IMG/VR virus record: IMGVR_UViG_3300042502_000594
Coordinates: 1,485-65,484 of that record
Origin: a virus
Lineage: Duplodnaviria; Caudoviricetes
Reading direction: 5' to 3' (one strand)
Length of the DNA: 64,000 nt
Numbering within the stretch: position 1 is the stretch's first letter; each line of letters begins with the position of its first letter. A program made the position numbers and the translations under genes. This document shows, in pieces, positions 27,340-47,529 of the stretch. Below the pieces are notes generated by a model. It was not told where the DNA came from and ran no database searches. It was given only the letters and a program-made list of their open reading frames with translations.

Positions 27340-27460
27340 TATGTTTGCAAAATATATCCTGCCTCCCGTTTGTTAAAGAGCAACAGCAAACGGGGGTTAG
27401 GATAGGTAAATTATCTTTTACCTAATTAGGCCCGTAAAGTTGCTCTTACGGGCTTTTTTT
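27340..27460 (+). ncRNA. Structured leader/attenuator (kissing-loop element 1) upstream of the replication initiator
   Basis: TATGTTTG promoter 27340-27347; long hairpin 27355-27404 with loop AAAGAGCAAC; small hairpin 27404-27423; terminator GCCCGTAA-AGTTGCTC-TTACGGGC-T7. Confidence 0.7.
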
Positions 27461-27464
27461 ATTT

Positions 27465-33376: not shown

Positions 33377-33454
33377 TAGCTGTAACATTTTTATGCACGT
33401 TTTTGTTACAGGACGTGTACATTTTTTTCTGTATTTTGCATAACAGGATGTGCA

Positions 33455-33697
33455 ATGGAGAACCCAAGGATCAAATACAGGAAGTTAGGCAGGGAAAGGG
33501 CGCGTGGCCTTTACCATGAGGACGGTCTTATTGAGATCGATCCAAGACTCCCTGCAAAGGAACACCTTGAGGTAATTATTCACGAATATCTTCACCACGA
33601 GTTCAAACACTGGGAGGAAAGCCATGTTGAAGAATACGGGAGAAAAATCTCCGAGTTCTTATGGGCATTAGGTTACAGACGCGTAAATTTGGAATGA
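33455..33697 (+). CDS. Small HExxH zincin-like protein (IrrE/ImmA-like)
   Basis: GLYHEDGLIEIDPRL...EVIIHEYLH...EESHVEE. Confidence 0.65.
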   Translation: MENPRIKYRKLGRERARGLYHEDGLIEIDPRLPAKEHLEVIIHEYLHHEFKHWEESHVEEYGRKISEFLWALGYRRVNLE

Positions 33698-33698
33698 C

Positions 33699-33950
33699 AT
33701 GAGAGTTATCCTTCCGATCGTTGTGGATACAGACGAAAAAAGAATCGCAGAGATGGTTGGCTCTACGCCAGACAAGTTCGAATGCGAGCCGGCTGTGTTT
33801 TATTCAATAGACAACGTGCGTCCATACATGAACTTTAAAAACCTGTGCATGGTAAGCAGTGGTGGAGACGACTTTATTGTCGGACTGTCGATGGAGGAGG
33901 TAGACGAGATCATTATGGACGACTTTACATTCACGTTTAGCGCAAATTAA
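33699..33950 (+). CDS. Hypothetical protein (83 aa)
   Basis: ORF 1 nt after the previous stop. Confidence 0.55.
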   Translation: MRVILPIVVDTDEKRIAEMVGSTPDKFECEPAVFYSIDNVRPYMNFKNLCMVSSGGDDFIVGLSMEEVDEIIMDDFTFTFSAN

Positions 33951-34009
33951 TGTTAATTTTCTTGCATATTGCCACGCGTGTATTATATTTGCCAACATAA
34001 ATAAACGAA

Positions 34010-34468
34010 ATGAACGATTTAGAAAGAAAAAAACGACTGATTGTGACCGCCCTAGGCGCACAACAGATCTACGCGCAGTGTCACGACGAGTGTGTGGACC
34101 TAAAGTTCTTCAAGCATGACCTGAAGATGCACTCCAAGAACCTAATTGCCAAGCTAGAGCGTGAGCTGATGCCGATCTTTGGCGTTCTTGGTAACGTGGA
34201 CGGCGGGGACGCATATCTAAACGCTGTAAGCTCGATGGAGGACACCTTGCAGAACCTTGCGACACTCCCTGTGGAGTACTGGGCATTAGTAAACCAAGGG
34301 ATTTATGACATAAAACAACTAATTCATGAAAAGAACCAAGAAGGGGATAACGGAGTACCTGGCGGAGAGGATAATGGAGTGGAATCCGAAGGTGGACAGC
34401 CAAGCGATAGCATGGACGCTGAGCCGGAACATACCTCAGCTCAAGAGCATGAGGCAGGCGGACATTGA
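34010..34468 (+). CDS. Hypothetical protein
   Basis: Upstream TATATTTG box and A-rich leader; low-complexity tail overlaps ORF 34326..34583. Confidence 0.55.
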   Translation: MNDLERKKRLIVTALGAQQIYAQCHDECVDLKFFKHDLKMHSKNLIAKLERELMPIFGVLGNVDGGDAYLNAVSSMEDTLQNLATLPVEYWALVNQGIYDIKQLIHEKNQEGDNGVPGGEDNGVESEGGQPSDSMDAEPEHTSAQEHEAGGH

Positions 34469-34683
34469 AACACTTCTTCAGGCCTGCAAAGATGATCTTT
34501 CCCAATGGTCCTATACCGGTCACGACTCCCCTTGGAGACGGATACATCCTCTACATAACACCGAACGGCTTCCTGGAGAATGACGAGATAACGGTCGTGC
34601 TGTCAAACGGCGGCGAAATAAGGCACTTCTCTAGCGACCAGGTGCGTGTGTGGAAAAACTCAACCTACGGGATACATGAATAA
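34465..34683 (+). CDS. Hypothetical phage protein
   Basis: PIPVTTPLGDGY...ENDE...GEIRHF, protein-like composition; exact start uncertain. Confidence 0.55.
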   Translation: MKHFFRPAKMIFPNGPIPVTTPLGDGYILYITPNGFLENDEITVVLSNGGEIRHFSSDQVRVWKNSTYGIHE

Positions 34684-34818
34684 CTACGTGATAACGATAT
34701 GGGACGGCGAGAAGATCGTCCACAACGCAAGGGCTAAGGCCAAGAGTCCTGAATCTGCCAAGACAAAGGCTTTAAGTGACTGTTTGAAGATGGATAAACT
34801 AATGGGAACTGAACGTAA

Positions 34819-35046
34819 ATGGTTAAGCTACAGATGGGACATACAAGCGACAATAAGCCGATAAAATACGCCTCAGACCTACTCAATGAAGTGGTTATGG
34901 ACATGATTATGCGTGAAAAGAAGGGTTTTTCTCAGTATAATCACACAATGGACCGCACGGACCTGACCAAAGACGAGTGGCTGCAACACGCATACGAGGA
35001 GGCGCTCGACCTTGCGCTGTATCTCAAGAAGATTATGAACTCATAA
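34819..35046 (+). CDS. Small all-alpha NTP-pyrophosphohydrolase-like (MazG-like) protein
   Basis: KGFSQYNHTMDRTDL...WLQHAYEEALDLALYL with an EExxD motif. Confidence 0.55.
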   Translation: MVKLQMGHTSDNKPIKYASDLLNEVVMDMIMREKKGFSQYNHTMDRTDLTKDEWLQHAYEEALDLALYLKKIMNS

Positions 35047-35055
35047 ACAAACGAA

Positions 35056-35337
35056 ATGAAAAAGAAGACACAGTACACAATCTTTGCCTATGAGCCAGGC
35101 ACTGAGGTTTATGCCATCTCGATGTGGCATGATAACGGAAAGCCAACCGACCACCTCGCAATCTACAAGGCCAAGGTGGCGTCGTGGAGCTATGACGCGG
35201 AAGAGAAAGACGTTCTCTACTACCTTGAAAGCCCCGGCGGCAAGTGGTGGGGAGACAGTATCAAAGGGGAGTATGTTTCAGAATCTTTTGAAGAGCTTTC
35301 TCAGTACGCTAAAGAACTCTGGACAAATGGGAAATAA
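35056..35337 (+). CDS. Hypothetical protein (93 aa)
   Basis: A-rich leader ACAAACGAA before the ATG. Confidence 0.6.
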   Translation: MKKKTQYTIFAYEPGTEVYAISMWHDNGKPTDHLAIYKAKVASWSYDAEEKDVLYYLESPGGKWWGDSIKGEYVSESFEELSQYAKELWTNGK

Positions 35338-35427
35338 AAACAACCTCCGCAGAGACATTGAACACGTCGTCCCCTACCTGATCTTACTTGCAATTTATGC
35401 AGCAATAATGCTAATACTATTTTCGCT

Positions 35428-36492
35428 ATGAGTGAAAAGGTAAAGTACATTTCCGTCTGTAGCGGAATAGAAGCAGCCTCCGTTGCGTGGCACGACATGG
35501 GATGGGAACCCGTGGCATTCTCAGAGATTGAACCGTTCCCCTCAGAGGTTCTCAAAATCAGATTTCCAAACACCCCGAACTGGGGTGACATGACTAAATT
35601 TAATACTTGGCCAAATGCAAATGTCAATCTTCTCGTTGGAGGCACACCATGCCAGTCCTTCTCAGTCGCAGGTCTCAGACAAGGTCTTAAGGACCCAAGA
35701 GGCAATCTCATGCTCACGTTTCTTGCAATCGCTGAGCGTTACAAACCTAAGTGGATTGTCTGGGAAAACGTCCCCGGAGTCCTGTCATCTAACGGAGGAA
35801 AGGATTTTGGTTCCTTCCTCGGGGCGTTGGGGGAGTTGGGGTACGGGTGGGCCTATCGGGTACTGGACGCTCAATGGTTCGGAGTGGCCCAAAGACGTAA
35901 ACGTGTGTTTGTTGTCGGATGTCTTGGAGACCAACGAGCTGCCGCAGAGGTTCTATTTGAGTCAGAAAGCGTGTCAAGGAATCCTGCGCCGAGCAGAGAA
36001 AAGAGGCAAGCAGTTACCAGAGCAACTGAAGAGAGCGTTGGAAGCGGTAAGTGGTGGGACGGAGGAGACACCTCAGCAACCCTAACTACAAGAAGTGGCG
36101 GACAGTACATGCCCGACAAAGACAACTTCCAAGCAGTAATTCAGCCAACCATAATAGACCGTGCTGCATTCAACCAGGGCGAGAATGCTCAATATGAACC
36201 AAAGATTGAGGAGTCGGAAACCATGCCTTCACTTGTTGCGAGGGGTCCACACGCTGTTGCCCACACGGCTTCACGCATAAGCAATCCTCCGATGGCTATC
36301 AGACGCCTTACCCCGGTGGAGTGCGAAAGGCTTCAAGGCTTTCCCGACAATTGGACAAAGATCCCGTGGAAGAAGAAACCAGCAGAGGATTGTCCCGACG
36401 GACCAAGATACAAGGCGTGTGGGAACTCAATGGCCGTTCCTGTAATGCGGTGGATTGGTCAGCGAATAAACAAAAAAACCGACCATTTCTGA
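35428..36492 (+). CDS. DNA (cytosine-5)-methyltransferase
   Basis: Motif I SVCSGIE, IV GGTPCQSFS, VI WENVPG, VIII AQRRKRVF, IX RRLTPVECERLQGFP, X YKACGNS. Confidence 0.95.
   Translation: MSEKVKYISVCSGIEAASVAWHDMGWEPVAFSEIEPFPSEVLKIRFPNTPNWGDMTKFNTWPNANVNLLVGGTPCQSFSVAGLRQGLKDPRGNLMLTFLAIAERYKPKWIVWENVPGVLSSNGGKDFGSFLGALGELGYGWAYRVLDAQWFGVAQRRKRVFVVGCLGDQRAAAEVLFESESVSRNPAPSREKRQAVTRATEESVGSGKWWDGGDTSATLTTRSGGQYMPDKDNFQAVIQPTIIDRAAFNQGENAQYEPKIEESETMPSLVARGPHAVAHTASRISNPPMAIRRLTPVECERLQGFPDNWTKIPWKKKPAEDCPDGPRYKACGNSMAVPVMRWIGQRINKKTDHF
35615..36085 (+). CDS. Nested alternative-frame ORF, M.EcoHK31I beta-polypeptide-like
   Basis: 156 aa in the +1 frame inside the MTase; RWGSWGTG...YWTLN.SEWP...CLLSDVLET...YLS..AC.GILRRAEKRGKQLPEQLKRAL resembles the beta subunit of heterodimeric C5-MTases. 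Confidence 0.65.
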   Translation: MQMSIFSLEAHHASPSQSQVSDKVLRTQEAISCSRFLQSLSVTNLSGLSGKTSPESCHLTEERILVPSSGRWGSWGTGGPIGYWTLNGSEWPKDVNVCLLSDVLETNELPQRFYLSQKACQGILRRAEKRGKQLPEQLKRALEAVSGGTEETPQQP

Positions 36493-36500
36493 TCGGCTTT
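36471..36500 (-). terminator. Intrinsic terminator of the small basic protein operon
   Basis: Minus strand GCCGATCA-GAAA-TGGTCGGT then T run; overlaps the MTase stop. Confidence 0.7.
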
Positions 36501-36540
36501 AGTCGTAACTACAACGGTCCCTGCACGAGACCGTGTTTCT

Positions 36541-36804
36541 TTAGCAGTCCCACTTTCTCAAAGCTAAAGCCTTGCGAGTGGGTTTGCCATTTGGTTTCTT
36601 CATAGGACCTGGCATACCACCCATTCTAGCACAAAAAGACTTCCTCCGAGCAGCGCTCTTGGGAGACTTCTTTGCTTGCTTGGCCGATACTGGGGGCTTC
36701 AATGTGCCTCCTGTTTCACGCTTGTACGAGGCTCGGCCCTTGGCGTTTAGACCGCCTTCTGGGTTCTTGCCCTCCTTTCTTTGCCATGCTGCTGTCCTTG
36801 CCAT
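36541..36804 (-). CDS. Small basic phage protein (DUF6321-like)
   Basis: WQRKEGKNPEGGLNAKGRASY...RRKSFCARM...ALRKWDC. Confidence 0.75.
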   Translation of the reverse strand: MARTAAWQRKEGKNPEGGLNAKGRASYKRETGGTLKPPVSAKQAKKSPKSAARRKSFCARMGGMPGPMKKPNGKPTRKALALRKWDC

Positions 36805-36959
36805 TATTTTTTCTTTTTAGCGGTCTTTTTTGACTTCTCAAAGTCCTTCGATGTAGGTGCGCCTGGTGTTCCGGGCTTCCTCATCTTCTCGCCTGATCCC
36901 TCAGCTATTCGCTTTCTCTTGGCGTGAATGTTCGCATATAGTCCTGCCTTTGCTTTCAT
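36804..36959 (-). CDS. Small basic phage protein (51 aa)
   Basis: Hand-translated MKAKAGLYANIHAKRKRIAEGSGEKMRKPGTPGAPTSKDFEKSKKTAKKKK; coupled on both sides. Confidence 0.75.
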   Translation of the reverse strand: MKAKAGLYANIHAKRKRIAEGSGEKMRKPGTPGAPTSKDFEKSKKTAKKKK

Positions 36960-37075
36960 CCTTGTCCTCTTGATGGTTTTACATTCTTGTCCATTGGTGA
37001 CTTGCGCTTAAAAGGCTTCCCATCCTTGCGCTTGCCAAACGTGGTCTTAGACCCGGTACCCATCGCCTTAGCCAT
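36956..37075 (-). CDS. Small basic peptide (39 aa)
   Basis: Hand-translated MAKAMGTGSKTTFGKRKDGKPFKRKSPMDKNVKPSRGQG; ATGA overlap with the next gene. Confidence 0.65.
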   Translation of the reverse strand: MAKAMGTGSKTTFGKRKDGKPFKRKSPMDKNVKPSRGQG

Positions 37076-37226
37076 GGCTACCCCCTTCACACTTACACTT
37101 CTCCGCCTCCTTGGCCTCCATCTCCATCCTTTCCATCTCCGAGCGACGTCTGTTCTTTACCATCTGCTTGGCAGGTGTATACCCCCCAAACATGTTATCC
37201 ATAAAGTCCTGTGACGCGTATTTCAT
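37068..37226 (-). CDS. Small hypothetical protein
   Basis: MKYASQDFMDNMFGG...; ATG 37226 follows a TATATTTG box (37247-37240). Confidence 0.55.
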   Translation of the reverse strand: MKYASQDFMDNMFGGYTPAKQMVKNRRRSEMERMEMEAKEAEKCKCEGGSHG

Positions 37227-37277
37227 AGCCTTTTTTTTACAAATATACACGGAGTCATGAAATATCCAACAAATTCC

Positions 37278-37349
37278 GTAAACTCATAATGGTTGTAAAC
37301 TCATAGTGGTTGGGGTCAATAAACTATAGACTCATCCTGGTTGGGGTCA
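37278..37349. repeat. Three imperfect 17-nt direct repeats, two followed by GGGGTCA
   Basis: GTAAACTCATAATGGTT 37278-37294, GTAAACTCATAGTGGTT 37295-37311, ATAGACTCATCCTGGTT 37326-37342. Confidence 0.8.
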
Positions 37350-37692
37350 CCCCCCACACTGCCCCTGCCCTGTCCCCGTCCCGAAGTCGATTCAGCAAAG
37401 GGGGTGGGGTGCTTGTCTTGCCGCCCCTGTCCATGCCGCGGGTATTTTGTCTCCACCGCGTGTAACAACCGCATTTTTGCGCTGATAGTCAGCACGTTAT
37501 ATTTCGCGTCCCATGCGTGGCGTATTTATGCCAGACCTTTTCGGGGTATTTCAGGCAGTATTTGCCCGTTTCGAGGGGTGCGCGGGGTATGTATTGTTTC
37601 ACGTCCAGGCCGCACATTCTTATTTAGAATGATTCCAGATAAGCATTTCAGCCCGTTTAAAGGCATGTAAACAGCCCGCCTACCGTAGATAC

Positions 37693-37990
37693 TGCCCGCG
37701 TAGATTGCCCGCGTTTATTGGGCTTCCTTGCAGTTGTGGAGGGGTGCGGGGCTTTTGGTTGGGGCAACCCGAGAAAGGGGTTTTTAATCGTGTGTGCGCG
37801 CATGAGTGCCTTAACTGCTCTTTGTCTATTCTCTTACATTCTCTTTGAGTACTTGGGCTATCCGTTGCAGATTTGCCCGCGTGAGGGGTTGCCCTTTCCG
37901 GGTTGCTTCCATGTTTGCCTCGTCTATTTGTTTCCTGTCTCTTTACCCTTGTGAAATACTGCGCGGATCCCTTTGACTATTTGCCCGCGT
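37693..37990 (+). repeat. Four dispersed TGCCCGCGT repeats
   Basis: Exact copies starting at 37693, 37706, 37874 and 37982. Confidence 0.8.
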
Positions 37991-38136
37991 CCAGGCTATC
38001 CGACCAACACAAACCAACACCGTTGAACCCTTCTCAAATATACAACAAAAGCCGGCACGAAAAAAATTTTTTTTCACTTAAATCATTGAAAATGAGCAAG
38101 TTTTATTTAGAATGAGTATAAATAACGGTTAGGGTA

Positions 38137-38166
38137 TTGACAAGAAATAAAGTTAGACTATCTTAG
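38137..38166 (+). promoter_or_regulatory. Probable early promoter
   Basis: TTGACA 38137-38142 and TATCTTAG 38159-38166, ahead of the first small plus-strand gene (ATG 38186). Confidence 0.6.
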
Positions 38167-38185
38167 CCGAAAATTTAGAAACAAC

Positions 38186-38383
38186 ATGAAAAAAGGCATT
38201 CAGTACACACACTATCTAGCGGGCGACATTCTCGAAATTATCAACGGGGCGCACCTTGCAAAAGAGCTGATGAATGAAGGCAGCGCGGAAGCCGCCGAAT
38301 GGCTAAGATACACCATTGAGCGCGCCCAACAACTAAGCGAAAAACTAGCTCGTTTGGATATAATCAACGAAATGAAATACTAA
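38186..38383 (+). CDS. Small early hypothetical protein
   Basis: First ORF after the early promoter; AC-rich leader. Confidence 0.65.
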   Translation: MKKGIQYTHYLAGDILEIINGAHLAKELMNEGSAEAAEWLRYTIERAQQLSEKLARLDIINEMKY

Positions 38384-38407
38384 ACACATCAATAATAAAT
38401 TAACACT

Positions 38408-38698
38408 ATGAGTAACATCGTAACCCCTCAAGATTTTACACGTATCAACAACGACGTAAACGGAAACCCGCGCTATGTGGTACACTTCACCCAACTAGTA
38501 AATGAAGCCGACCGCGAGACCGCGAAGAACTGCGCGCCTCCGTTCGGTTATATTTCGGAACTTTACAGTATAGCCGTAAAAAAGGCCAATAAATTAGGCG
38601 GGCGCAAATACCATACGAAAAGCTACGGCGGCGGCATTGTATTCCAGTCTTACAACCTCGACAACCTGTGCGAACACATCAACAACATCAACAAATAA
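38408..38698 (+). CDS. Conserved small early phage protein
   Basis: FTRINNDVNGNPRYVVHF...GGRKYHTKSYGGGIVFQSYN; function unknown. Confidence 0.7.
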   Translation: MSNIVTPQDFTRINNDVNGNPRYVVHFTQLVNEADRETAKNCAPPFGYISELYSIAVKKANKLGGRKYHTKSYGGGIVFQSYNLDNLCEHINNINK

Positions 38699-38721
38699 CA
38701 ACCTCTTAAAATTTCAACACT

Positions 38722-39015
38722 ATGAAAAACATTTTAGAAATTCACAACGTTAGCGACTCAATAGCATTTTGCGAAGCGCAAGGGCTAGCCATTTGTTTTC
38801 AAGCATACGCCGACGAGTGCGCGGGCGAATCAATTATGAACGTCGGCTTTAATTCAAACAGCGGGTATGTATACATAGCCCTCGAAAATGGTATTTCGAT
38901 ATGCTCAATGTTGGGGCGCGGCGTTGAGTATCTGGTGACCAACTTTGAAGACGGCGAAGAGACGTTTTTAGAAAGTTACAGCGAAGCGGAGCAGTTGCTC
39001 GCTTCAATGTATTAA
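38722..39015 (+). CDS. Acidic early hypothetical protein
   Basis: GFNSNSGYVYIALENG; AC-rich leader. Confidence 0.65.
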   Translation: MKNILEIHNVSDSIAFCEAQGLAICFQAYADECAGESIMNVGFNSNSGYVYIALENGISICSMLGRGVEYLVTNFEDGEETFLESYSEAEQLLASMY

Positions 39016-39091
39016 ACGGGCAATGGTGCACGAGCGGGTTCGATTCCCGCTCCTGTTTCTAAAATTTCAACAACAATAAAAATTCAACATC

Positions 39092-39304
39092 ATGAACACC
39101 AATTTACAAACATTCGAATGCCATGTAAGATTAGCCCAACACAGCAACGGAGGGATAATCTTCGCGGACGTATTCTACACACACACAGGCAACCGATTCG
39201 GAGCCATAAGAAAGGGAATTTTACAAGCCCGCAAATACAACGCTGACGAGGTTAGAAGGGTGAACATCTTGCACCAATATGCCCCTACGTATTTTGAAAT
39301 ATAA
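39092..39304 (+). CDS. Small early hypothetical protein
   Basis: ORF with AC-rich leader. Confidence 0.55.
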   Translation: MNTNLQTFECHVRLAQHSNGGIIFADVFYTHTGNRFGAIRKGILQARKYNADEVRRVNILHQYAPTYFEI

Positions 39305-39324
39305 AAACAAAAATAGACCACCAC

Positions 39325-39492
39325 ATGACACTATCAACCAACACGCAGTGCCTACTATCCAACGGCAAAGTAGGAACATTCAAAGGTTACAAAGAAACAC
39401 CGTCCGGTTTATTGCTTCGGTTCATATACCCCGAACGCGGGCGAATGATAGAGCAGACCTTTTCAAAATACGAAATAATCAAGAAAGTATAA
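39325..39492 (+). CDS. Small early hypothetical protein (55 aa)
   Basis: Hand-translated MTLSTNTQCLLSNGKVGTFKGYKETPSGLLLRFIYPERGRMIEQTFSKYEIIKKV. Confidence 0.55.
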   Translation: MTLSTNTQCLLSNGKVGTFKGYKETPSGLLLRFIYPERGRMIEQTFSKYEIIKKV

Positions 39493-39509
39493 CCAAACAC
39501 AAAAAAGCT

Positions 39510-39785
39510 ATGTATCAGAATTTCAACTTCCAAACTACGTTGGGCAATGTATCGCTAGACCTTTACAAGCCAACCAAAGTGAATTTATGCGGCATAAACT
39601 ACGCGAGCGAGTTACAGGTGCAAGTCTGGACGAACCACGAAGAAACAGCCGGGTATATCGTGTACGCAAGCATTCCCAAAAAAACAGCGAGATACAGCCG
39701 AATCAAAAAACACTACATCGACGAGGCGAGCGCGAAAAAGTACGGTCGTCAGTTAATCAGCGAAATTTTACCAATAATCAAATAA
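39510..39785 (+). CDS. Small early hypothetical protein (91 aa)
   Basis: C-terminal part of track ORF 39279..39785; ATG 39510 has an A-rich leader. Confidence 0.55.
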   Translation: MYQNFNFQTTLGNVSLDLYKPTKVNLCGINYASELQVQVWTNHEETAGYIVYASIPKKTARYSRIKKHYIDEASAKKYGRQLISEILPIIK

Positions 39786-39794
39786 TTCAACACC

Positions 39795-40070
39795 ATGAGC
39801 AACGAAAGATTTGCGCGGATATGCTCCGCAACCAACAAAGGCATGAACGAAGGTTTCCTGTTCGAAGAATCTCTAATGTACTTCATTGAGAAGGAAGACG
39901 CCGAACGCTACGCAATCGAAATTGGCTATACCGACCTAGACGAGGCATACGACGACGGCGCATACTGCTATACCGAATGGGACATTGAAGATGAGGGCGA
40001 GTGGTATGAGAAGCACGAAGGCGAATGGTACGAATGCACAGATGAAGAAAAAGTAAAATACAACCAATAA
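39795..40070 (+). CDS. Highly acidic early protein
   Basis: About 27 D/E in 91 aa by my count; many aromatic residues. Confidence 0.7.
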   Translation: MSNERFARICSATNKGMNEGFLFEESLMYFIEKEDAERYAIEIGYTDLDEAYDDGAYCYTEWDIEDEGEWYEKHEGEWYECTDEEKVKYNQ

Positions 40071-40081
40071 AATTAAAAACC

Positions 40082-40303
40082 ATGTTTCAAGTAACAGTAA
40101 CACGAACAACAACCGGTGAATGTATCTACAATGATGAATTCGCCACCATAGGAAAGGCATACAACCGCTTTGCGGAGTGGTGCGAAGATTATTCATACAT
40201 CATTGAAGAAACAAGCGAGGAAGAATTCAATGCAGGCGGCTTTACTGCCGGGGGTAGGGGCTTCGATTACACAATAGAACTAAAACAAGTAACTCAAGAA
40301 TAA
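40082..40303 (+). CDS. Small acidic early protein
   Basis: ORF with A-rich leader. Confidence 0.6.
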   Translation: MFQVTVTRTTTGECIYNDEFATIGKAYNRFAEWCEDYSYIIEETSEEEFNAGGFTAGGRGFDYTIELKQVTQE

Positions 40304-40327
40304 ACAACAATTAAACACTTCAATACA

Positions 40328-40855
40328 ATGACAACGCAACAACAAAACATCATTGACGCACTAACCGACGAGTTCACACGCATCAACAAGGCGAGTGCAA
40401 CCAAAAAATCATTCAACCTCATCAATGTTGATGCCCTACAAGACAAAACAAGGGCTCAAAAAGAGTTCAAAGAACTCTCAAAGCAAGACCTTGCGACCTG
40501 GCAATTAGCCGCCTACGCTGAAATGGAACGCATTATCGAACTATTAGTAAAAGATTTACCCGACCATGTAAGGGTTGAGAGGTACGATGAGCGCATTGGC
40601 AAGTACAAGTCACCCGAAATACAAATACGACACGAAAGTGTTAGCCCAAGAGCGCATTGCGATGATGTAGTTTCAATTAGAGTGAAGATTGATTTTTGTA
40701 GGAGGTACAATGAATACGAGATGGGTTTTGATTTCGGTAAACGATTATTATACACAACAAGTGAAACAGGCTGCATGAGTGAATTTGATACAATCGAAAA
40801 AGCCGTTAGCCACATAAAATTCCAAGAAGGACTACGCCAAAAAGTATTACGATAA
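40328..40855 (+). CDS. Early hypothetical protein (175 aa)
   Basis: ORF with AC-rich leader. Confidence 0.65.
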   Translation: MTTQQQNIIDALTDEFTRINKASATKKSFNLINVDALQDKTRAQKEFKELSKQDLATWQLAAYAEMERIIELLVKDLPDHVRVERYDERIGKYKSPEIQIRHESVSPRAHCDDVVSIRVKIDFCRRYNEYEMGFDFGKRLLYTTSETGCMSEFDTIEKAVSHIKFQEGLRQKVLR

Positions 40856-40897
40856 TAATTAAACACAACAACAACCAACAAATAAAAAATAAACAAC

Positions 40898-41392
40898 ATG
40901 CCAAACCACGTAATTCACCGCCTGTACATTCATGGCGACAACCAACAAGAAGTTAAATCATTCATTCGCGGAGAAGCAGCGATAGACTTCAACAGGATTA
41001 TTCCAATGCCGGAGGATCTGAATGATACACCCGCCCCGACCCCAATGAAGACCGAAGAGGATATAAAGAAACACCACGAACTGATGCAAAAGTATGGAGT
41101 ATCTAATTGGTACGACTGGAGATTGAGTAATTGGAACACAAAGTGGAATGCCTATAACATAGAAGAAACCGAGCATTACATCCAATTTCAAACCGCATGG
41201 AGCACACCCCTTGCAGTAATTGAAAAGCTCAGTTTGTTATTCCCTGAAAATACCTTTGAGGTATCATTTGCCGACGAAGATTTAGGATATAACTGCGGAA
41301 GCTACATGTATCAAAACGGCGAGCGCATAAGCGAAGAGCAAGGAGACATGGCCTGGGCTTGTGAGCTATGGGAATACGAACTAGAATCGTAA
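40898..41392 (+). CDS. YubB/DUF1281 ferredoxin-like domain protein
   Basis: MPNHV...DFNRIIPMP...WYDWRLSNWNTKWN...FQTAWSTP. Confidence 0.85.
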   Translation: MPNHVIHRLYIHGDNQQEVKSFIRGEAAIDFNRIIPMPEDLNDTPAPTPMKTEEDIKKHHELMQKYGVSNWYDWRLSNWNTKWNAYNIEETEHYIQFQTAWSTPLAVIEKLSLLFPENTFEVSFADEDLGYNCGSYMYQNGERISEEQGDMAWACELWEYELES

Positions 41393-41576
41393 ACAATTAG
41401 CTTACAAACGATGATAAACAAAAAAACAACCGCCCAGATGCTCGATATATATGAGCGAATTGTGGCTGTAATTGCCGCGATAATCTTGATAGTCGTACTA
41501 CTATCATAAATTAACAACCATTAACAAGTGGGTGCAATACTTAGAACTATATTGCACCCACATTTAAAACAACACT

Positions 41577-43240
41577 ATGCAACAATCCAACTTTCACAAC
41601 GTAAGTTTCTTACAATGGATGCGCGATGCATCCTACGAATACAACGCAGAATTCGACGTTAAGGTTTATGAGGACAAAGAAACCGGAATCGTTTACATAG
41701 ACATTCACGACACCTACGACAAAGACAGCTCGAATGTACTTGAATCATTCAGCTACATGGACATGGAAGAAATAGACCAGGACATAGAATGGGCAGAGAA
41801 AGAATTTAACGTAACAATTAACACTATAAAAAATGAGTACTGAAGAAAAAGTAATCAGCCACATCCAACAACAAATCATGGACGAATGGCGGGCAGTCAT
41901 GAAGTATGAAGAGCAACTGAAAAAGCCGGCATGGGAGGGTGACCAAATCATCAAAGACTGCATCGCCAATGCCAAAGACCGCATCGAAATCTATACAATA
42001 ATCCTAAACAAGTTTGAACAATGAACCACGAAGAAATCGACCAAGCAAAAGAGGTGTTACGCAAAGCCGGATACAATGTTGAATCCCTATGGCACGTCCA
42101 AGACGTAACCGATCGGTACGAATGCGATGAGGAAACAGCATACGATATTCTTACCAATGCGCTTGATAGAAGCATTGAAAGAACATTTGATGTCATATCT
42201 GACGAAGCAATGTTTTACGAACTAAAAGAAAAACAACAATGAGATACTTTAATTACGACGATTGGAAACTATCCAACCCCGACGACGACGGGCACTACAC
42301 CGAAGAAACAACCGACCACATTGAGGAGACCATCTTCTTTAAGTATCTGCAAGGGTACAAGGGCAGATTCGCCTACGGCATGATAACCAAGCAAGGTTAC
42401 TGCATAACAATTACCGACTGCCTCAGCATTCCGGCAATAGAAACTGACGAGATTGAGCCGACGCAAACTGAGCAGGATGATGAGATACATAGACTACGAA
42501 TGAACTACAAGGAGTTTACCTTTATTGATCGCTCCGAGTTTATGGGACAGTATCATTTAGCACATGGACACTTAGCAACCATCATCGCAAATGAGACGCG
42601 TAATTGACCAGATAGTATTCAACCTAATGATGTGGCTCTTAAAAGACATTGACAAATGATAATCGACTATCGCACCGGCGACGACATAGTCGCAATCAAA
42701 GACCACTCACAGGGTGTGTTCCTAAAAGGAGATGTGTTCACAGCTATGGCCATGCAAAGGAATGGCTGTGGATGCATCATCCTTGTGGACATCGGATTGA
42801 AAAGTGACAGGCCATTCACCAAGTGTCCTGTATGCGACATGAACGACGAGAAGACCGACAATGTATGGTGGGTAGATGCTCGTGCGTTTCGTAAGCTACT
42901 GACTAAATCGGAGGAAGCAGACCTCGCAGATGTGCTCGCTGAGGTGTTCGCTGAAGAACTAAATAGTCTTAATTAGACTAAGATTAACTGATACCATTGA
43001 AGTTACACTATATTTGCAATCTAAATGACAAAGCTATTTAAAACCAAAGACGGGTATGAAGTTGTAAAAAGTTCGCGTGACGTTTATGCAATCATAGGCA
43101 AGCGCGTGAAGTACATAGGCAAGGTCTCGCCCAGTTACCAGTCGAGCGGAAGGCTGCTCAAGAATATACCAAACGAAATCAAATCAATCTTTTTTAACAT
43201 TCAACGAAATGAATTGGAATCTACAACAACTATGGAATGA
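41577..43240 (+). other. Run of six small hypothetical genes (41577-41843, 41833-42024, 42021-42242, 42239-42607, 42656-42976, 43025-43240)
   Basis: Co-oriented, mostly overlapping ORFs; several acidic; 42656 has CGC and CPVC zinc-ribbon-like cysteines. Confidence 0.6.
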
Positions 43241-44204
43241 ATGCGTTTATTCCCAACAACGTGCGCTAGAGCCACGAGACTACTGCTATGCATCGGAAAT
43301 CGGTCAGCCCCTCGTTGACCGTTATCTCAAGATGAAAGCGGTTACACCAACCAACCCACCAAACATGAGAAGCCTCCGCAAGTTCGAGGCGGGTAACCTT
43401 GTCGAATGGGTAGTACGCTATGTGTTAGAACGTGCTGGCCTGATCAACAATACACAAGAGCGTGTTATGGTCGAGTACCCGAACATGCTCAAGGTATCGG
43501 GTCGATTAGACTTCCTTGCGGGCGGCAAGATTGACATCGAACGTGCCAAGCAAGACATCACATCCTCGCACCTCCCGGAGTCTATCCAAGCATCCTCCCT
43601 GTACATCGCGGAGAAACTACATGAGAAGTTTGGTGACAAGGAATTAGAGAAGAAGGTTCTCGAAATCAAGTCATGCTCATCATTCGTGATGGACATGATG
43701 GAGAAGACAGAGAAACCCATCAAGCACCACAGACTCCAACTATTCCACTACATGAAGGGATTGGGTTTGAACGGTGAACTCGTGTACATCTGCAAGGATG
43801 ACCTACGGATGATGTGTTTCCAATACGAGCCGTCGGCTGAACTTGAAGCTGAGTACCTCGCAGACCTTGAGAAGATAACGCACCACTTCAACACATCCAC
43901 TCGTCCGCCACTTGAGAAACACATCGTGGTCGAAGACGGCAAGTTCAAAAAGAATTTCGGAATCGAATACTCCAATTACCTCAAGTTCCTGTACGACTTC
44001 GAGGAGCCACGCGACTACGCTGACTCAGTTAAGTCCCAGGTTGCACGCTGGACTCGTGTGGTTGCCCGCTACGCTAAGGGCGACAAGATAACTCCAAAGA
44101 ACGAGGAAGTACGTGCTGAGATCGAAGCAGCCGGATACAACTTTAATCAAATCGTAGAACAAGCCAAGAAGTTTGGCGTAACTGAAGAAGAAGAAGAAAT
44201 TTAA
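43209..44204 (+). CDS. PD-(D/E)xK exonuclease (Cas4/RecB-like)
   Basis: YASEIG, VSGRLDF, LEIKS and HRLQLFHYM motifs. Confidence 0.8.
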   Translation: MNWNLQQLWNECVYSQQRALEPRDYCYASEIGQPLVDRYLKMKAVTPTNPPNMRSLRKFEAGNLVEWVVRYVLERAGLINNTQERVMVEYPNMLKVSGRLDFLAGGKIDIERAKQDITSSHLPESIQASSLYIAEKLHEKFGDKELEKKVLEIKSCSSFVMDMMEKTEKPIKHHRLQLFHYMKGLGLNGELVYICKDDLRMMCFQYEPSAELEAEYLADLEKITHHFNTSTRPPLEKHIVVEDGKFKKNFGIEYSNYLKFLYDFEEPRDYADSVKSQVARWTRVVARYAKGDKITPKNEEVRAEIEAAGYNFNQIVEQAKKFGVTEEEEEI

Positions 44205-44216
44205 TAATCAAACCAA

Positions 44217-44435
44217 ATGAAAATACAAATCGACACCAAATTCTCCGTAGGAGACACAATCTTTTTCATCGATGATGACAAGATTAAATTCGCAGTAATC
44301 TACAAGATGGAAATTACTATCGAAGAACACGAACACAGAACGTATCTATTTGCGAGAGACCAAGACAGAAACGTATCGGTAGTTCCGGAAAGAAGAGCAT
44401 TCATATCAAGAGAACAACTAATCCAATCACTATGA
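44217..44435 (+). CDS. Hypothetical phage protein
   Basis: MKIQIDTKFSVGD...FISREQLIQSL. Confidence 0.65.
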   Translation: MKIQIDTKFSVGDTIFFIDDDKIKFAVIYKMEITIEEHEHRTYLFARDQDRNVSVVPERRAFISREQLIQSL

Positions 44436-44665
44436 GAATCCAAATAGAAAAGAACGTACCAGCTCCCAAGCACAGTACAAGATCGGGCAAGTACCCATTC
44501 AAGGACATGGTAGTGGGAGATTCATTCTTCATTACGGATGAAAACCCAGAGCCCATACGCAAGAAGATATCAGCAGCCGCTTGTATGTTCTGCAAGAAGA
44601 ATGACAAATATAAATTCAAGACTCAGGTCTTAGATACCGGAGTCAGGGTATGGAGGGTACAATGA
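44432..44665 (+). CDS. Small putative DNA-binding phage protein
   Basis: IEKNVPAP...KYPFKDMVVGDSFF...GVRVWRV. Confidence 0.7.
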   Translation: MRIQIEKNVPAPKHSTRSGKYPFKDMVVGDSFFITDENPEPIRKKISAAACMFCKKNDKYKFKTQVLDTGVRVWRVQ

Positions 44666-45096
44666 AACACAACGCAGTAATCACACCACAGGGGGCATTG
44701 CGAATCTACAATCGCCCCCTCTTCGAAGAGGACGTCAGAGCGATGTCCCGTGAGACGGACTTGGCTGTGACCATCGAAGTCAAACTGAAGAAGCGGTTCC
44801 GGTCGGACGTGCAGAACGCATACTATTGGGGCGTGGTAGTGGCCATGATATCGCAGAGACTACGCGAGCTTGGACACGACGTCGACCGAGACCTCACGCA
44901 TGAGTTCCTCAAGGGAAGGTTTCTCTATACTGAGTTCACAGACCCGACATCCGGTGAAGTCATGAAGATTCCACGCAAGACGTCGGAGCTTGCAACGGAA
45001 GAGTTTATGGAATACGTCGAACACGTCAAGCAGTTTGCTGCTGAGACGTTGGACATTTATATTCCCGACCCAAATGAGCAACTTGAGATAGGTTAA
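44650..45096 (+). CDS. NinB/Orf-like recombination protein
   Basis: RSDVQNAYYWG...HEFLK...TSELATEEFMEYVE...IPDP. Confidence 0.7.
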   Translation: MEGTMKHNAVITPQGALRIYNRPLFEEDVRAMSRETDLAVTIEVKLKKRFRSDVQNAYYWGVVVAMISQRLRELGHDVDRDLTHEFLKGRFLYTEFTDPTSGEVMKIPRKTSELATEEFMEYVEHVKQFAAETLDIYIPDPNEQLEIG

Positions 45097-45296
45097 ACCT
45101 TGGACTCATTCAAAAGAAAAGACAGAGAAAAGAAACAAGTCAAGAAGAAACCTAAAGAGAAGAAAAGAAAAAGCCTCCCCCCGTGAAAAACAAACTACCC
45201 CGCCCCACAAAGGGGCAGCTACCCGATCCAACATACTCGCGTATGAAGTTTGCCTCTTGCACCGACAGGGCTGATTCGGATAGGTGGGAAACGGGT

Positions 45297-45412
45297 AAAA
45301 AAAAAGCCCTCGTCTGGTACGTCCGAGGGCAATTTTGGCATGAGAATTAGATTTCTCAATTCCCACATTGCACTGGTACCAGACACTGCAATGTGAGAAC
45401 GCAACAAAAGTA
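45297..45412 (-). ncRNA. Structured RNA (kissing-loop element 2)
   Basis: Minus strand: TACTTTTG promoter 45412-45405; hairpin TTCTCACATTGCA/TGCAATGTGGGAA with loop containing GTCTGGTAC; small hairpin TGAGAA/TTCTCA; terminator GCCCTCG-GACGTACCAGA-CGAGGGC-T9. Confidence 0.7.
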
Positions 45413-45480
45413 TGGCTACAAAAATGTAAAAGTCAAAAAAAATAATTGCATAAAAACAACACATAAGTTATCTTTGTAAA

Positions 45481-45747
45481 ATGAAAACAACATCTTTAAC
45501 AATTTTAATCGCGCTATCCCTACTTGCATGCAAGAAAGAGGAGCAACCGGAACCCGCACAACCAACACAACAATGTAACTGCGGGACTATCGCTAACGAC
45601 GGCATCGACTCGGCCACCAACTGCTACTGGTTGGAGATACGAAACGAATGCTCCGGCAACAAGAAGAAGTTCTGCTTTGACCAAGACGTTTGGACAAACA
45701 ACTTTGTCGGCGACAGATTCTGTGTAACTAACGTAACATCTTGGTGA
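45481..45747 (+). CDS. Small Cys-rich lipoprotein
   Basis: Signal peptide with lipobox LLAC followed by KKEE; six further Cys; TATCTTTG box 4 nt upstream. Confidence 0.75.
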   Translation: MKTTSLTILIALSLLACKKEEQPEPAQPTQQCNCGTIANDGIDSATNCYWLEIRNECSGNKKKFCFDQDVWTNNFVGDRFCVTNVTSW

Positions 45748-45750
45748 ACA

Positions 45751-45984
45751 ATGAACCTACCAATGTTTGAAAAAGACAAGGCGAACCACGCCATCTACGG
45801 TGTGGTAATCTATGGACTATCTTCCATCCTAATCACGCCTATATTCTCCTTAATCGCGGTGTTTACCACAGCGGTAGCAAAGGAGCTGTATGACAACTAC
45901 AACGGCAAGAGGTTCAGCTATGGAGACATCATGGCGACCCAGGCCGGTGGGATAATCGGGTTCTTGATATCAATTATTAACTAA
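45751..45984 (+). CDS. Small membrane protein (DKxxH motif)
   Basis: DKANHAIYG...AKELYD...FSYGDIMAT with hydrophobic helices. Confidence 0.65.
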   Translation: MNLPMFEKDKANHAIYGVVIYGLSSILITPIFSLIAVFTTAVAKELYDNYNGKRFSYGDIMATQAGGIIGFLISIIN

Positions 45985-45997
45985 AACAATTTGACGA

Positions 45998-46497
45998 ATG
46001 AAACAACAAACAGCAGTAGAGTGGTTAATTAAAGAATTAGAATCATATGGTGATCCACAATTTTGTAAAATAGAATGGGAAACATTAGATTTACTAATAC
46101 AACAAGCCAAAGCAATGGAGAAGGAGCAGATTATGAATGCTTACTTAGAAGGAGAATCAGATGCTGACCACTCCGATGATTCGGCATTACGATTTTACAA
46201 CGAAACATACGGAGGTGACAAATGAATGAACAAACCGCAGTAGAATGGCTAGTGGAACAAGTCAACAGCGACTGCCTAAACTCCACGTTTATCAGGCCAG
46301 AGCTGATCAGGAAGGCCAAGGCAATGGAACGCGAACAGATTGAGGGCGCGTTCAATTCGGGTACTAACTTTGACGCATACAGGCCGAACTGCCCCGCAGG
46401 TTACGCCTATTACGAGGCGATGTACGAGAAGCGTAAGGTTATGATGGGTGACCTAAAGGATTTCTTTAACTTTAGCAAATACAAGAAAAAGAAATGA
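45998..46497 (+). other. Two tandem paralogous small genes (45998-46225, 46222-46497)
   Basis: Both carry QTAVEWL...AKAME(K/R)EQI. Confidence 0.75.
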
Positions 46498-46981
46498 AAG
46501 CAATACTTGAATTTAATTTGCCGGAAGATCAGTCCGATTTCGACCTCGCAGTTAAAGCCCTCGACATGAGGATTGCATTAGACGGAATCCGACAATACCT
46601 CAGGGGCAAGGTCAAGTACGACACCCATGACGAGAAACAGTGGGAGGCGTATAACGAGGTATACGAACAATTCTACGAAATAATAAACAATTACAACATA
46701 AAGCTATGATCAAAATCTCAGACAAGCCATCTAAGAAGGTGGAACACTTTACCGGAACCATAACCATGTCGTTCCCAAACATAGAAAACAAAATTTGGAA
46801 CTTCACGGTGTTGCGTACAACGAACGGATCAACTACCTTTGCCGTACAAGCAGACTATGAACAATTCATACAACACATTAACGACGAGGTGGATGGCGAG
46901 TTATACACGACAATACTCGAAGAAACCGTCAAGGCAAACTTGGCTAAAGAACAGGCAGAGTGGAAACCTGCCGAAAAATAA
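46494..46981 (+). other. Two small hypothetical genes (46494-46709, 46706-46981)
   Basis: ATGA-coupled ORFs; the first begins MKAILEFNLPED. Confidence 0.6.
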
Positions 46982-46989
46982 GATAGCGT

Positions 46990-47529
46990 ATGAAGGCGAG
47001 GAATAAGAAGTGCAGAATCTGTAGGCAGGAGTTTATCCCTAAGTACAGCACGATGCAGGCAACGTGTGAGAACATCGAATGCATGATAGCCTATTCCTCC
47101 AAGCAGAAGGATAAGAAAACCAAGGCTGAGTTCAAGGCCATCAAGGAGCGGAACAAGTCCGTCTCCCAGTGGAGAAAAGAACTACAGCAGGTGTTCAACC
47201 AATACATCCGGCTTCGAGACCAAGGAAAGGGCTGTATATCCTGCGGGAAGCAGCTACAGGGCAAGTATGACGCGGGTCATTACTTTTCTGTAGGCTCCTA
47301 CCCAAACCTCAGGTTCAACGAGTCGAACGTGCATGGCCAGTGTGTGGGCTGCAACCAACACAAGCACGGCAACCTGTTGGAGTACGCCATAGGAATTGAG
47401 AAGCGCATTGGCAAGAGCAAGCTAGAGGAACTGAAGTCCATGCGTAACGACCGACTCAGCCTACCACTAGATAAGATGAAGGAGTTGATATACCACTACA
47501 AGGACAAAGTAAAAGAACTAAAAAAATGA
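46990..47529 (+). CDS. ninG: NinG/Rap-like HNH recombination endonuclease
   Basis: KKCRIC...C...C, VFNQYIRLRD, CISCG, DAGHY, LRFNESNVHGQCVGCNQHKHGN. Confidence 0.9.
   Translation: MKARNKKCRICRQEFIPKYSTMQATCENIECMIAYSSKQKDKKTKAEFKAIKERNKSVSQWRKELQQVFNQYIRLRDQGKGCISCGKQLQGKYDAGHYFSVGSYPNLRFNESNVHGQCVGCNQHKHGNLLEYAIGIEKRIGKSKLEELKSMRNDRLSLPLDKMKELIYHYKDKVKELKK

What the first reader, a model, noticed from the sequence alone, without database searches (positions are those of the whole stretch)
45297..45412. Second copy of the same RNA architecture with unrelated sequence
Seen on the minus strand: TACTTTTG promoter, 13-bp hairpin with loop GTCTGGTAC (45384-45376), 6-bp middle hairpin, terminator containing GTACCAGAC (45320-45312) and U9. 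It has the same order, the same length (~103 vs ~105 nt) and again a perfect 9-nt complement overlapping the terminator 3' arm, yet shares no primary sequence with element 1. Two instances with different 9-mers amount to covariation within one genome and suggest a reusable riboregulator family with orthogonal loop codes. No convincing gene follows, so the RNA itself or its read-through may be the product.
Basis: partly seen in the sequence, partly recalled or inferred. Interest (0 to 1): 0.85.

Follow-up and report, generated by a model that had tools for sequence, protein, structure and literature searches.

The report
Kissing-loop terminator leader RNA in phage
This is a real, conserved small folded RNA of a Flavobacteria-type phage in which the tip of a first hairpin base-pairs with the tip of a transcription-stop hairpin, probably a gate on what is transcribed next, and no RNA catalogue lists it.

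Summary
On the minus strand, 45412-45297 holds a TAnnTTTG promoter box, a 13-bp hairpin, a 6-bp hairpin and a terminator with U9. Nine bases of the first loop (45384-45376) complement the terminator loop (45320-45312).

It is not chance. A descriptor scan found only this element and element 1 (27341-27460) in the window, and none in 20 shuffles.

Of 51 related phage loci, 35 carry the element. The loop-loop pairing is kept with 13 different letter sets, through compensatory changes and G.U pairs that fit only the minus-strand RNA. Element 1 behaves the same way in 40 distinct sequences, always directly before the replication-initiator ATG.

The claim that no gene follows needs refining. Element 2 is always followed on its own strand by one of two highly conserved non-coding modules, or once by a winged-helix protein gene.

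The best reading is a promoter-proximal leader whose kissing loop is coupled to its own terminator and gates read-through. That function is inferred, and no transcript data were obtainable.

The element is not in Rfam 15, and three literature searches found no description. This scan has already noted the same design in other phages. The closest published mechanism is the guanidine-IV riboswitch.

The parts
45431..45436 (-). TTGACT, upstream promoter hexamer of element 2
   Evidence: TTGACT-16-CATACT. Consensus match only.
45405..45412 (-). TACTTTTG, Bacteroidota-type -7 box (TAnnTTTG)
   Evidence: Nearly invariant in 24 distinct relatives (TACWTTTG; pairwise diversity 0.039). The motif name is recalled knowledge.
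45360..45399 (-). Hairpin H1: 13-bp stem and 14-nt loop. The loop segment GTCTGGTAC (45384-45376) is the 5' partner of the kissing pairing.
   Evidence: 13 pairs, 99.0% paired, 4 pairs with changes on both sides.
45341..45358 (-). Hairpin H2, 6 bp, with variable sequence
   Evidence: 87.2% paired; pair 66/82 is G-C in 14 sequences and A-U in 10.
45297..45330 (-). Intrinsic terminator: 7-bp GC-rich stem, 11-nt loop, U9. GTACCAGAC (45320-45312) is the 3' partner of the kissing pairing and includes the first base of the 3' arm.
   Evidence: stem 100% paired, kissing pairs 99.2% paired, 3 of 5 with changes on both sides.
45105..45296 (-). Module A: a nearly invariant non-coding block directly downstream on the same strand. 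It holds a GNRA-capped hairpin (45245-45232), a second terminator-like hairpin (45218-45200) followed by GGTAGTTTGTTTTT, then a G6 run and a ~75-nt polypyrimidine tract (polypurine on the + strand).
   Evidence: It accompanies element 2 in 26 of 35 loci, also when + strand genes are inserted between it and the NinB-like gene. Indels are not multiples of three. The hairpin loop varies GCGA/GTGA/GAGA.
27341..27460 (+). Element 1, the other copy. TATGTTTG box 27341-27348; H1 27363-27396 with loop AAGAGCAAC at 27376-27384; H2 about 27403-27424; terminator 27430-27453 with GTTGCTCTT at 27439-27447; U7 27454-27460. The replication-initiator ATG is at 27465.

Best explanation
Element 2 is one of two copies in this phage of a conserved, promoter-proximal leader RNA of about 100 nt.

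Transcription from a host-type promoter (TTGACT ... TACTTTTG) makes hairpin H1, hairpin H2 and an intrinsic terminator. Nine to ten bases of the H1 loop then pair with the terminator loop, up to and including the first base of the terminator's 3' arm. This is a kissing loop, formally a pseudoknot.

I read it as a cis-acting gate. The loop-loop helix and the terminator stem are coupled, and the outcome decides how many polymerases stop at the U tract, releasing a compact ~100-nt RNA, and how many run on. In element 2 they would run into the conserved non-coding module A. In element 1 they would run into the replication-initiator gene.

By analogy with the guanidine-IV riboswitch, I favour the version in which the kissing helix hinders completion of the terminator and so favours read-through. 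Here that would happen without a ligand pocket.

Shown: the fold, the pairing, its conservation, the strand, and the fixed position in front of a downstream product.

Inferred: that it is transcribed, that the terminator works, that the pairing changes termination and in which direction, and what input (protein, RNA, Mg2+ or transcription speed) controls it.
For: Fold and chance: MFE -43.3 kcal/mol, z -4.78. The descriptor found 2 sites in the window against 0 in 20 shuffles.

Element 2 in relatives:
- 35 of 51 loci fetched with the neighbouring NinB-like protein carry it.
- In 24 distinct sequences, 97.0% of 741 cells are standard pairs, against 39-51% with slid partners. 0 of 500 shuffles reach the observed covariation score.
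- Every sequence has 7-10 contiguous complementary bases between the H1 loop and the terminator loop (mean 9.25; non-cognate combinations 6.3). These use 10 letter sets, and a divergent version adds 3 more.

Element 1 in relatives: in 40 distinct sequences the 7 kissing pairs are 98.6% paired. Two pairs changed on both sides in 17 sequences, and there are three letter sets.

Strand: G.U pairs in H1 and in the kissing helix fit only the minus strand.

Leader position:
- Element 1 ends a few bases before the initiator ATG, although the initiator N-termini fall into at least three types.
- Element 2 is followed on its own strand by module A in 26 loci, by module B in 8, and by a 239-aa winged-helix protein gene whose ATG ends the U tract in 1.
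- Both element 2 sequence types occur with both modules.
- No TAnnTTTG box lies between the U tract and module A.

Energetics: as a free duplex the kissing helix scores -13.2 to -21.7 kcal/mol (mean -16.8). The terminator hairpin scores -11.2 to -14.1 (mean -12.9). Non-cognate loop pairs average -9.5.

Both copies place the 3' end of the pairing flush with, or 1-2 nt inside, the terminator's 3' arm.

Against: - No transcript evidence. The only RNA run found holds assembled contigs of a relative, which show neither ends, strand nor level.
- The direction of the effect is open. A 1-3 nt linker on the 5' side of the terminator loop could, by my own rough geometry, just span the deep groove of a 7-10 bp helix. 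The kissing helix might therefore stack on an intact terminator and stabilise it instead.
- No antiterminator or RNA-binding family appeared among the 29 window proteins scanned.
- The element 2 cassette is accessory. Two relatives rated 100% complete have no match to it (positive control).
- The element 2 model did not find the element 1 variants of those two genomes at E <= 1. The model-level likeness of the two copies is therefore weak.
- Module A is too conserved to show covariation: 0 of 41 predicted pairs have changes on both sides.
- 0 of 3 published phage records scanned whole have the design: two cultured Flavobacteriia phages and one host-less environmental record.
Confidence: 0.58

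Rival explanations
1. Stand-alone small RNA. The terminated ~100-nt RNA is the product. The kissing loop only makes it compact and nuclease-resistant, or shapes it for a protein partner, and it acts in trans as a decoy, sponge or protein-binding RNA. Read-through would be incidental.
For: It is a complete promoter-to-terminator unit with a strong fold. In the window no protein gene follows. Element 2 with its module is an accessory cassette, absent from two complete relatives, as morons and anti-defence genes often are.
Against: Element 1 abuts the initiator ATG with no room for another promoter. Element 2 is never found without a conserved downstream module or gene on its strand (35 of 35 loci). 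The 9-mer has no other match in the window, so no obvious base-pairing target exists in the phage.
Confidence: 0.2
2. Code-specific trans control, like an immunity or incompatibility system. Released leader RNAs pair through the same loops with nascent leaders of the same code, on the same or a co-infecting genome, and change their termination. The varied letter sets would then be addresses that separate related phages and separate the two units within one genome.
For: There are 13 letter sets for element 2 and 3 for element 1 among close relatives, and none is shared between the two units. Non-cognate loop pairs are about 7 kcal/mol weaker. Both led units touch replication: an initiator, and in L017 a winged-helix protein with weak initiator-family hits. 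That recalls plasmid copy-control RNAs, which is recalled knowledge.
Against: Loop diversity (0.31-0.32) is no higher than in H2 (0.34) or the linker (0.42), so no excess variation needs explaining. In the finished RNA both loops would be occupied in cis.
Confidence: 0.12
3. DNA-level signal. The two 9-mers are half-sites of an inverted repeat bound by a dimeric protein, or part of an origin, and the RNA fold is a by-product.
For: An inverted repeat is also a DNA feature. The region lies among replication and recombination genes, next to a long polypurine/polypyrimidine tract.
Against: G.U (G.T) pairs occur in the kissing helix and in H1 on one strand only. The half-sites always sit in the loops of two hairpins that themselves covary as RNA helices. 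Letter sets differ among phages with 86-99% identical neighbouring proteins.
Confidence: 0.04
4. An ordinary terminator plus chance complementarity.
For: Relaxed descriptors give 0-3 hits per shuffled window.
Against: The strict descriptor gives 0 in 20 shuffles. The pairing is kept with 13 letter sets across relatives.
Confidence: 0.01

Closest known systems
Guanidine-IV riboswitch (mepA motif)
   Same: A first hairpin loop kisses the loop of the terminator-forming hairpin. The kissing loop competes with completion of the terminator and gives read-through (passages read in PMC11611296).
   Different: There the loop bases are conserved and the pairing needs guanidine; that the motif controls exporter genes is recalled, not read. 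Here the loop letters vary freely (13 sets), the helix is 9-10 Watson-Crick pairs and should form without a ligand, and the downstream products are a replication initiator or a non-coding RNA. No Rfam model matched.
Lambdoid PR' - 6S RNA - tR' unit released by Q
   Same: A promoter followed at once by a terminator, so that a short RNA is made unless termination is overcome. It heads a phage transcription unit.
   Different: No Q-like protein or Q-binding element was identified. Lambda's unit has no loop-loop pairing with its terminator, as far as I recall.
P4 CI RNA (seqB with seqA/seqC) and P1/P7 c4 RNA (recalled; named in earlier notes)
   Same: Short phage RNAs whose loop letters pair with matching sites in the same transcription unit, with compensatory differences between related phages.
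   Different: Those RNAs target further sites in the mRNA, and their pairing causes termination or blocks translation. Here the only partner in the window is the element's own terminator loop. No match to the Rfam C4 model.
Countertranscript-driven attenuation of plasmid rep genes (pT181, pIP501; recalled)
   Same: A leader in front of a replication-initiator gene that can end at an intrinsic terminator, with loop-loop contacts deciding the fold.
   Different: Those systems use an antisense RNA from the opposite strand. No such promoter was looked for systematically here, and the complementary loops lie on one RNA.
Rfam RF04312 trpB ncRNA motif
   Same: A long hairpin, a linker, and a terminator with a U tract. 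It is the best sub-threshold Rfam hit to element 1 (36.1 bits).
   Different: The score is below the gathering score of 59. There is no hit to element 2. The match reflects the generic hairpin-plus-terminator shape.
Kissing-loop terminator leader RNAs noted earlier in this scan (e1-3441540, e1-5906645, e1-5869497, e1-5846641, e1-6065381, e1-5869498)
   Same: Promoter-proximal position, a first hairpin loop paired with the terminator loop, several copies per phage with different letters, and covariation in relatives.
   Different: Those are other genomes and I did not check them. Here one copy heads a non-coding module rather than a gene.

Membership tests
Intrinsic (Rho-independent) terminator | GC-rich hairpin directly followed by a U tract | tested here: met
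   7-bp stem with 6 G-C pairs, then U9. Stem 100% paired in 24 sequences.
Intrinsic (Rho-independent) terminator | Actually stops RNA polymerase | not testable with these tools
   Only assembled contigs of one RNA run were available.
Guanidine-IV riboswitch (mepA motif) | Match to the curated covariance model | tested here: not met
   No Rfam family at gathering score in the window. Nothing relevant at E <= 10 around element 2 or element 1.
Guanidine-IV riboswitch (mepA motif) | Kissing loop between the first hairpin and the terminator-forming hairpin | tested here: met
Guanidine-IV riboswitch (mepA motif) | Conserved loop nucleotides that form a ligand site | tested here: not met
   Loop segments are among the most variable parts (0.31-0.32 pairwise diversity), with 13 letter sets.
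P1/P7 c4 and P4 CI type immunity RNAs | Further complementary target sites in the downstream transcript | tested here: not met
   The element 2 9-mer and its complement occur only inside the element.
P1/P7 c4 and P4 CI type immunity RNAs | Match to the Rfam C4 model | tested here: not met
Lambdoid PR'-6S-tR' late unit | Promoter-proximal terminator in front of a transcription unit | tested here: met
   Element 1 lies 4 nt before the initiator ATG. Element 2 lies before module A.
Lambdoid PR'-6S-tR' late unit | A Q-type antiterminator encoded by the phage | tested here: inconclusive
   No such family among the 29 window proteins scanned (29 against PHROGs; 9 of them also against Pfam). Many small ORFs have no family at all.
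phi29-type packaging RNA | Loops that pair between molecules to form a ring on the portal, with the gene near the packaging end | tested here: inconclusive
   Complementary loops exist, but pairing within versus between molecules cannot be told from sequence. The location is among replication genes, and no Rfam match was found.
Kissing-loop terminator leader RNAs (uncatalogued class noted by this scan) | Promoter box, first hairpin, and terminator whose loop complements the first loop by at least 7 nt | tested here: met
Kissing-loop terminator leader RNAs (uncatalogued class noted by this scan) | Pairing kept in relatives through compensatory changes, and copies in one genome using different letters | tested here: met
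Rfam RF04312 trpB motif | Score at or above the gathering score (59 bits) | tested here: not met
   36.1 bits for element 1. No hit for element 2.

The most novel reading that the evidence does not exclude
The two leaders are ligand-free, address-coded gates on the phage's replication functions. Each terminator is opened or closed only by a loop carrying its own letters. Cognate leader RNAs made earlier, or by a co-infecting relative, could then set in trans how much initiator and how much of the conserved downstream RNA is made. The downstream RNA (module A, with its 75-nt polypurine/polypyrimidine tract) might be an origin or primer transcript. This would be an RNA-only copy-control or incompatibility system in a lytic-type Flavobacteria phage.
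Probability: 0.12. Interest if true: 0.88.

Novelty: new variant of a known kind. Interest (0 to 1): 0.7.

Why it matters
If the pairing does set termination, this is a simple and programmable transcription gate. A 9-10 bp loop-loop helix with free letters is coupled to a terminator, and nature already supplies at least 16 working letter sets (13 for element 2, 3 for element 1).

It would explain how phages of Bacteroidota, which use host-type promoters and show no recognisable antiterminator here, meter their early and replication genes. It would also give synthetic biology orthogonal parts for a phylum with few tools.

It also flags two unstudied, highly conserved non-coding RNAs (modules A and B) that these leaders head.

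The family is absent from Rfam 15, and I found no description of it in print.

Tried and rejected
- BLAST of 44600-45800 against 50,697 GenBank phage records gave no match.
- Rfam found no family at gathering score. At loose E-values only chance or sub-threshold hits appeared.
- RNA evidence: one metatranscriptome run (X1, share 0.07) holds contigs of a relative that cover parts of 27000-46999, including the bin 45009-45675. Contigs show no ends, strand or level, so this says nothing for or against transcription.
- GC skew follows gene orientation and gives no origin signal at element 2.
- Coding reading of the 81-codon minus-strand ORF 45219-45464 across the element is rejected. Relatives differ by 1-, 2- and 4-nt indels inside it.
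- Coding reading of the ~82-codon frame after element 2 in L002, L016, L044 and others is rejected. Indels are not multiples of three and the translations diverge.
- A read-through extension of the NinB-like gene into the polypurine tract is rejected. L010 has an in-frame stop and frame-changing indels.
- Wider distribution:
  - The alignment-based initiator search added only one more locus with element 1 (L140). The other 22 new loci (L168-L189, distant initiator-like matches; 60 kb scanned including L140) gave 0 descriptor hits.
  - Three distant matches in bacterial genomes were not followed.
  - 0 hits in three whole public phage records: Maribacter phage Panino, MW202828.1 and Flavobacterium phage elemoF.
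- Model R1 found nothing at E <= 1 in two complete relatives, which do carry element 1 variants.
- Module A: consensus folding gave no compensatory pairs. Look-ups of earlier notes by sequence and by relatives returned nothing.
- Literature: three searches found no description of this design in phages. I read only passages of PMC11611296 and the search listings of the rest. Supplementary files were not consulted.

Full report
**What is there.** Read on the minus strand, 45412-45297 has the following parts in order:
- a TACTTTTG box (45412-45405), with TTGACT 18 nt upstream;
- a 13-bp hairpin H1 (45399-45360) with a 14-nt loop;
- one unpaired U;
- a 6-bp hairpin H2 (45358-45341);
- a 10-nt A-rich linker;
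- a terminator with a 7-bp stem and 11-nt loop (45330-45306);
- U9 (45305-45297).

GTCTGGTAC in the H1 loop (45384-45376) is the exact complement of GTACCAGAC (45320-45312). That partner is the 3' part of the terminator loop plus the first base of the 3' arm. The unit folds at -43.3 kcal/mol, z = -4.78, and none of 200 shuffles does as well.

**Chance.** The window has only six strong hairpin-plus-T-run sites. Two of them belong to this element and to element 1 (27341-27460, + strand). A strict descriptor found exactly these two sites and none in 20 dinucleotide shuffles. It required a terminator, an upstream hairpin of at least 9 bp, and at least 7 nt of Watson-Crick complement between the two loops. 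A relaxed version again found only these two, while 10 shuffles gave 0-3 weak hits. The 9-mer of element 2 occurs nowhere else in the window.

**Relatives of element 2.** The window is 1485-65484 of a 65,484-bp virus record with direct terminal repeats. GenBank phages have no nucleotide match.

The neighbouring NinB-like protein retrieved 51 IMG/VR loci. By BLAST, 29 carry element 2 at 73-96% identity. The descriptor found a divergent version with other stems in 6 more.

In the 24 distinct sequences of the first type (alignment A1):
- 97.0% of 741 cells form standard pairs, against 39-51% when partners are slid.
- 0 of 500 shuffles reach the observed covariation score.
- H1 has 4 pairs changed on both sides.
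- 3 of the 5 kissing pairs that MAFFT aligned consistently changed on both sides, and 99.2% of their cells are paired.

Per sequence, the longest contiguous complement between the two loops is 9 (15 sequences), 10 (8 sequences) or 7 (1 sequence). Non-cognate combinations average 6.3.

Ten letter sets occur. Examples are GTCTGGCTGG/CCAGCCAGAC, GTTGGAGAG/CTCTCCAAC, GTGTGAGAG/CTCTCACAC and GTCTGACGG/CCGTCAGAC, plus GTTTGGCGG/CCGCCAGAC with a G.U pair. The divergent type adds three more.

The loop segments are about as variable as H2 and the linker (0.31-0.32 against 0.34 and 0.42). The terminator arms, the U tract and the promoter box barely vary. So the letters are free and only complementarity is kept.

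**Element 1.** The initiator-like protein (27465-28154) retrieved 57 loci. In 56 of them the element sits just upstream, and the 57th is cut off.

In 40 distinct sequences (A2):
- The 7 kissing pairs are 98.6% paired, and two pairs changed on both sides in 17 sequences.
- H1 is 95.0% paired, with 6 of 12 pairs changed on both sides.
- The terminator is 99.4% paired, with 4 of 8 changed on both sides.
- H2 scored only 46% because MAFFT misaligned it, so I draw nothing from that.

Three letter sets occur, one of them in a group with unrelated stems. The element always ends a few bases before the initiator ATG, although the initiator N-termini fall into at least three types.

**One family?** The two copies share almost no sequence. 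Even so, a covariance model of element 2 (R1, without the pseudoknot) ranks element 1 second in the whole window, matched over its full length (28.2 bits, rough E 2.6e-05; the next foreign hit is 13 bits). Against that, R1 found nothing at E <= 1 in two complete relatives that carry other element 1 variants. I therefore call them one design, and homology remains possible but unproven.

**What follows element 2.** No protein gene follows in the window, but the next ~190 nt on the same strand (module A, 45296-45105) are almost invariant in 14 relatives.
- They stay attached to element 2 when + strand genes are inserted between them and the NinB-like gene.
- Indels are not multiples of three.
- One 5-bp hairpin keeps a GNRA loop (GCGA, GTGA or GAGA) on the minus strand only.
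- A second terminator-like hairpin (45218-45200) and a ~75-nt polypyrimidine tract follow.

Eight loci instead have a ~290-nt module B, also non-coding, with a C(UUCG)G hairpin on the minus strand. In L017 the U tract runs into the ATG of a 239-aa protein with two winged-helix domains and weak initiator-family hits.

In total, 26 loci have module A, 8 have module B and 1 has the protein gene, which accounts for all 35. Both sequence types of element 2 occur with both modules. Two loci end inside module B, and 14 show neither the element nor a module. Two relatives rated 100% complete lack the cassette, so it is accessory. There is no promoter box between the U tract and module A. Anything made from module A on this strand must therefore come through the terminator.

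**RNA, not DNA.** The conserved U.G pair in H1 (19 of 24 sequences), further G.U pairs in H1 and in the kissing helix, and the GNRA and UUCG loops downstream all fit the minus strand only. The 9-mers always lie in the loops of helices that covary.

**How it may work.** As a free duplex the kissing helix is worth -13.2 to -21.7 kcal/mol (mean -16.8). The terminator hairpin is worth -11.2 to -14.1 (mean -12.9). Non-cognate loops average -9.5.

In both elements the pairing ends flush with, or 1-2 nt inside, the terminator's 3' arm. In element 2 the invariant C at 45312 can pair either with the G at 45324 (closing the stem) or with the G at 45384 (extending the kissing helix).

The loop leaves the polymerase before the 3' arm does, so the kissing helix can form first. 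That is inference.

[quoted passage not shown] I therefore favour a gate in which the kissing helix lowers termination.

The opposite cannot be excluded. By my rough geometry, the 1-3 nt left on the 5' side of the terminator loop could just cross the deep groove of a 7-10 bp helix. That would allow a coaxial stack that stabilises the terminator and the released RNA. What controls the gate is unknown. No antiterminator family appeared among the 29 window proteins scanned.

**Known relatives and novelty.**
- Rfam 15 has no match at gathering score.
- The best loose hits to element 1 are the trpB motif (36.1 bits against a gathering score of 59) and anti-hemB (27.6 against 49.5). Both are generic hairpin-plus-terminator matches. 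Element 2 has none.
- Three full-text searches found no description of this design in phages.
- Earlier notes of this scan describe the same design in other phages, including Bacteroidota, Flavobacterium-type, Treponema and temperate phages. I used them as leads and did not check them.
- The nearest cultured phages by primase-helicase infect Flavobacterium, Cellulophaga, Maribacter and Tenacibaculum at 24-39% identity, so a Flavobacteriia host is likely.
- Three public records scanned whole had no instance.

**Limits.**
- No transcript ends, no termination assay and no structure probing were possible.
- The only RNA run was contigs of a relative.
- The kissing pairs beyond the five consistently aligned columns were counted by my own script, not by the pair-counting tool.
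- E-values from R1 are rough.

Noticed in passing
window 45105-45296 (minus strand): Module A is a ~190-nt non-coding block that is almost invariant among relatives and more conserved than the flanking genes. It has a GNRA-capped hairpin, a terminator-like hairpin, a G6 run and a ~75-nt polypyrimidine tract (polypurine on the + strand). It might be an RNA of its own or an origin- or primer-like signal.
   Followed up: partly
L002:3230-3515 (minus strand); also L003, L014, L015, L016, L033, L044, L048: Module B is a ~290-nt conserved non-coding block that replaces module A behind element 2. It has a C(UUCG)G hairpin and frame-breaking indels. It shares a ~21-nt core with module A (TAYGCGRGTAKGTTGRATYGG). 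No Rfam hit at E <= 1 in the four of these loci that were scanned (L002, L003, L016, L048).
   Followed up: partly
L017:3592-4311 (minus strand): In one relative, element 2 leads straight into a 239-aa protein with two winged-helix domains (MarR-type hit 2.5e-07). It has weak hits to the same replication-initiator PHROG as the gene behind element 1.
   Followed up: partly
window 45469-45483 (+ strand): A TATCTTTG box ends 4 nt before the ATG of a small lipoprotein-like gene (45481-45747). The gene is divergent from element 2's promoter and may give a leaderless or near-leaderless mRNA.
   Followed up: no
window 45486-45757: A contig of the metatranscriptome run joins 45486 to 45757, so a relative lacks the 88-aa lipoprotein-like gene.
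   Followed up: no
window 27465-28154 and loci L053-L109: The replication-initiator gene behind element 1 has at least three unrelated N-terminal types joined to a conserved C-terminal half (invariant YDKKVDKKQ and GRERKYWKDP). This looks like domain swapping of the DNA-binding part while the leader is kept.
   Followed up: partly
window 27129-27320 (+ strand): A conserved 63-aa ORF with an N-terminal hydrophobic segment and a Cys-rich tail ends just before element 1's promoter. Transcripts from it would also meet element 1's terminator.
   Followed up: no
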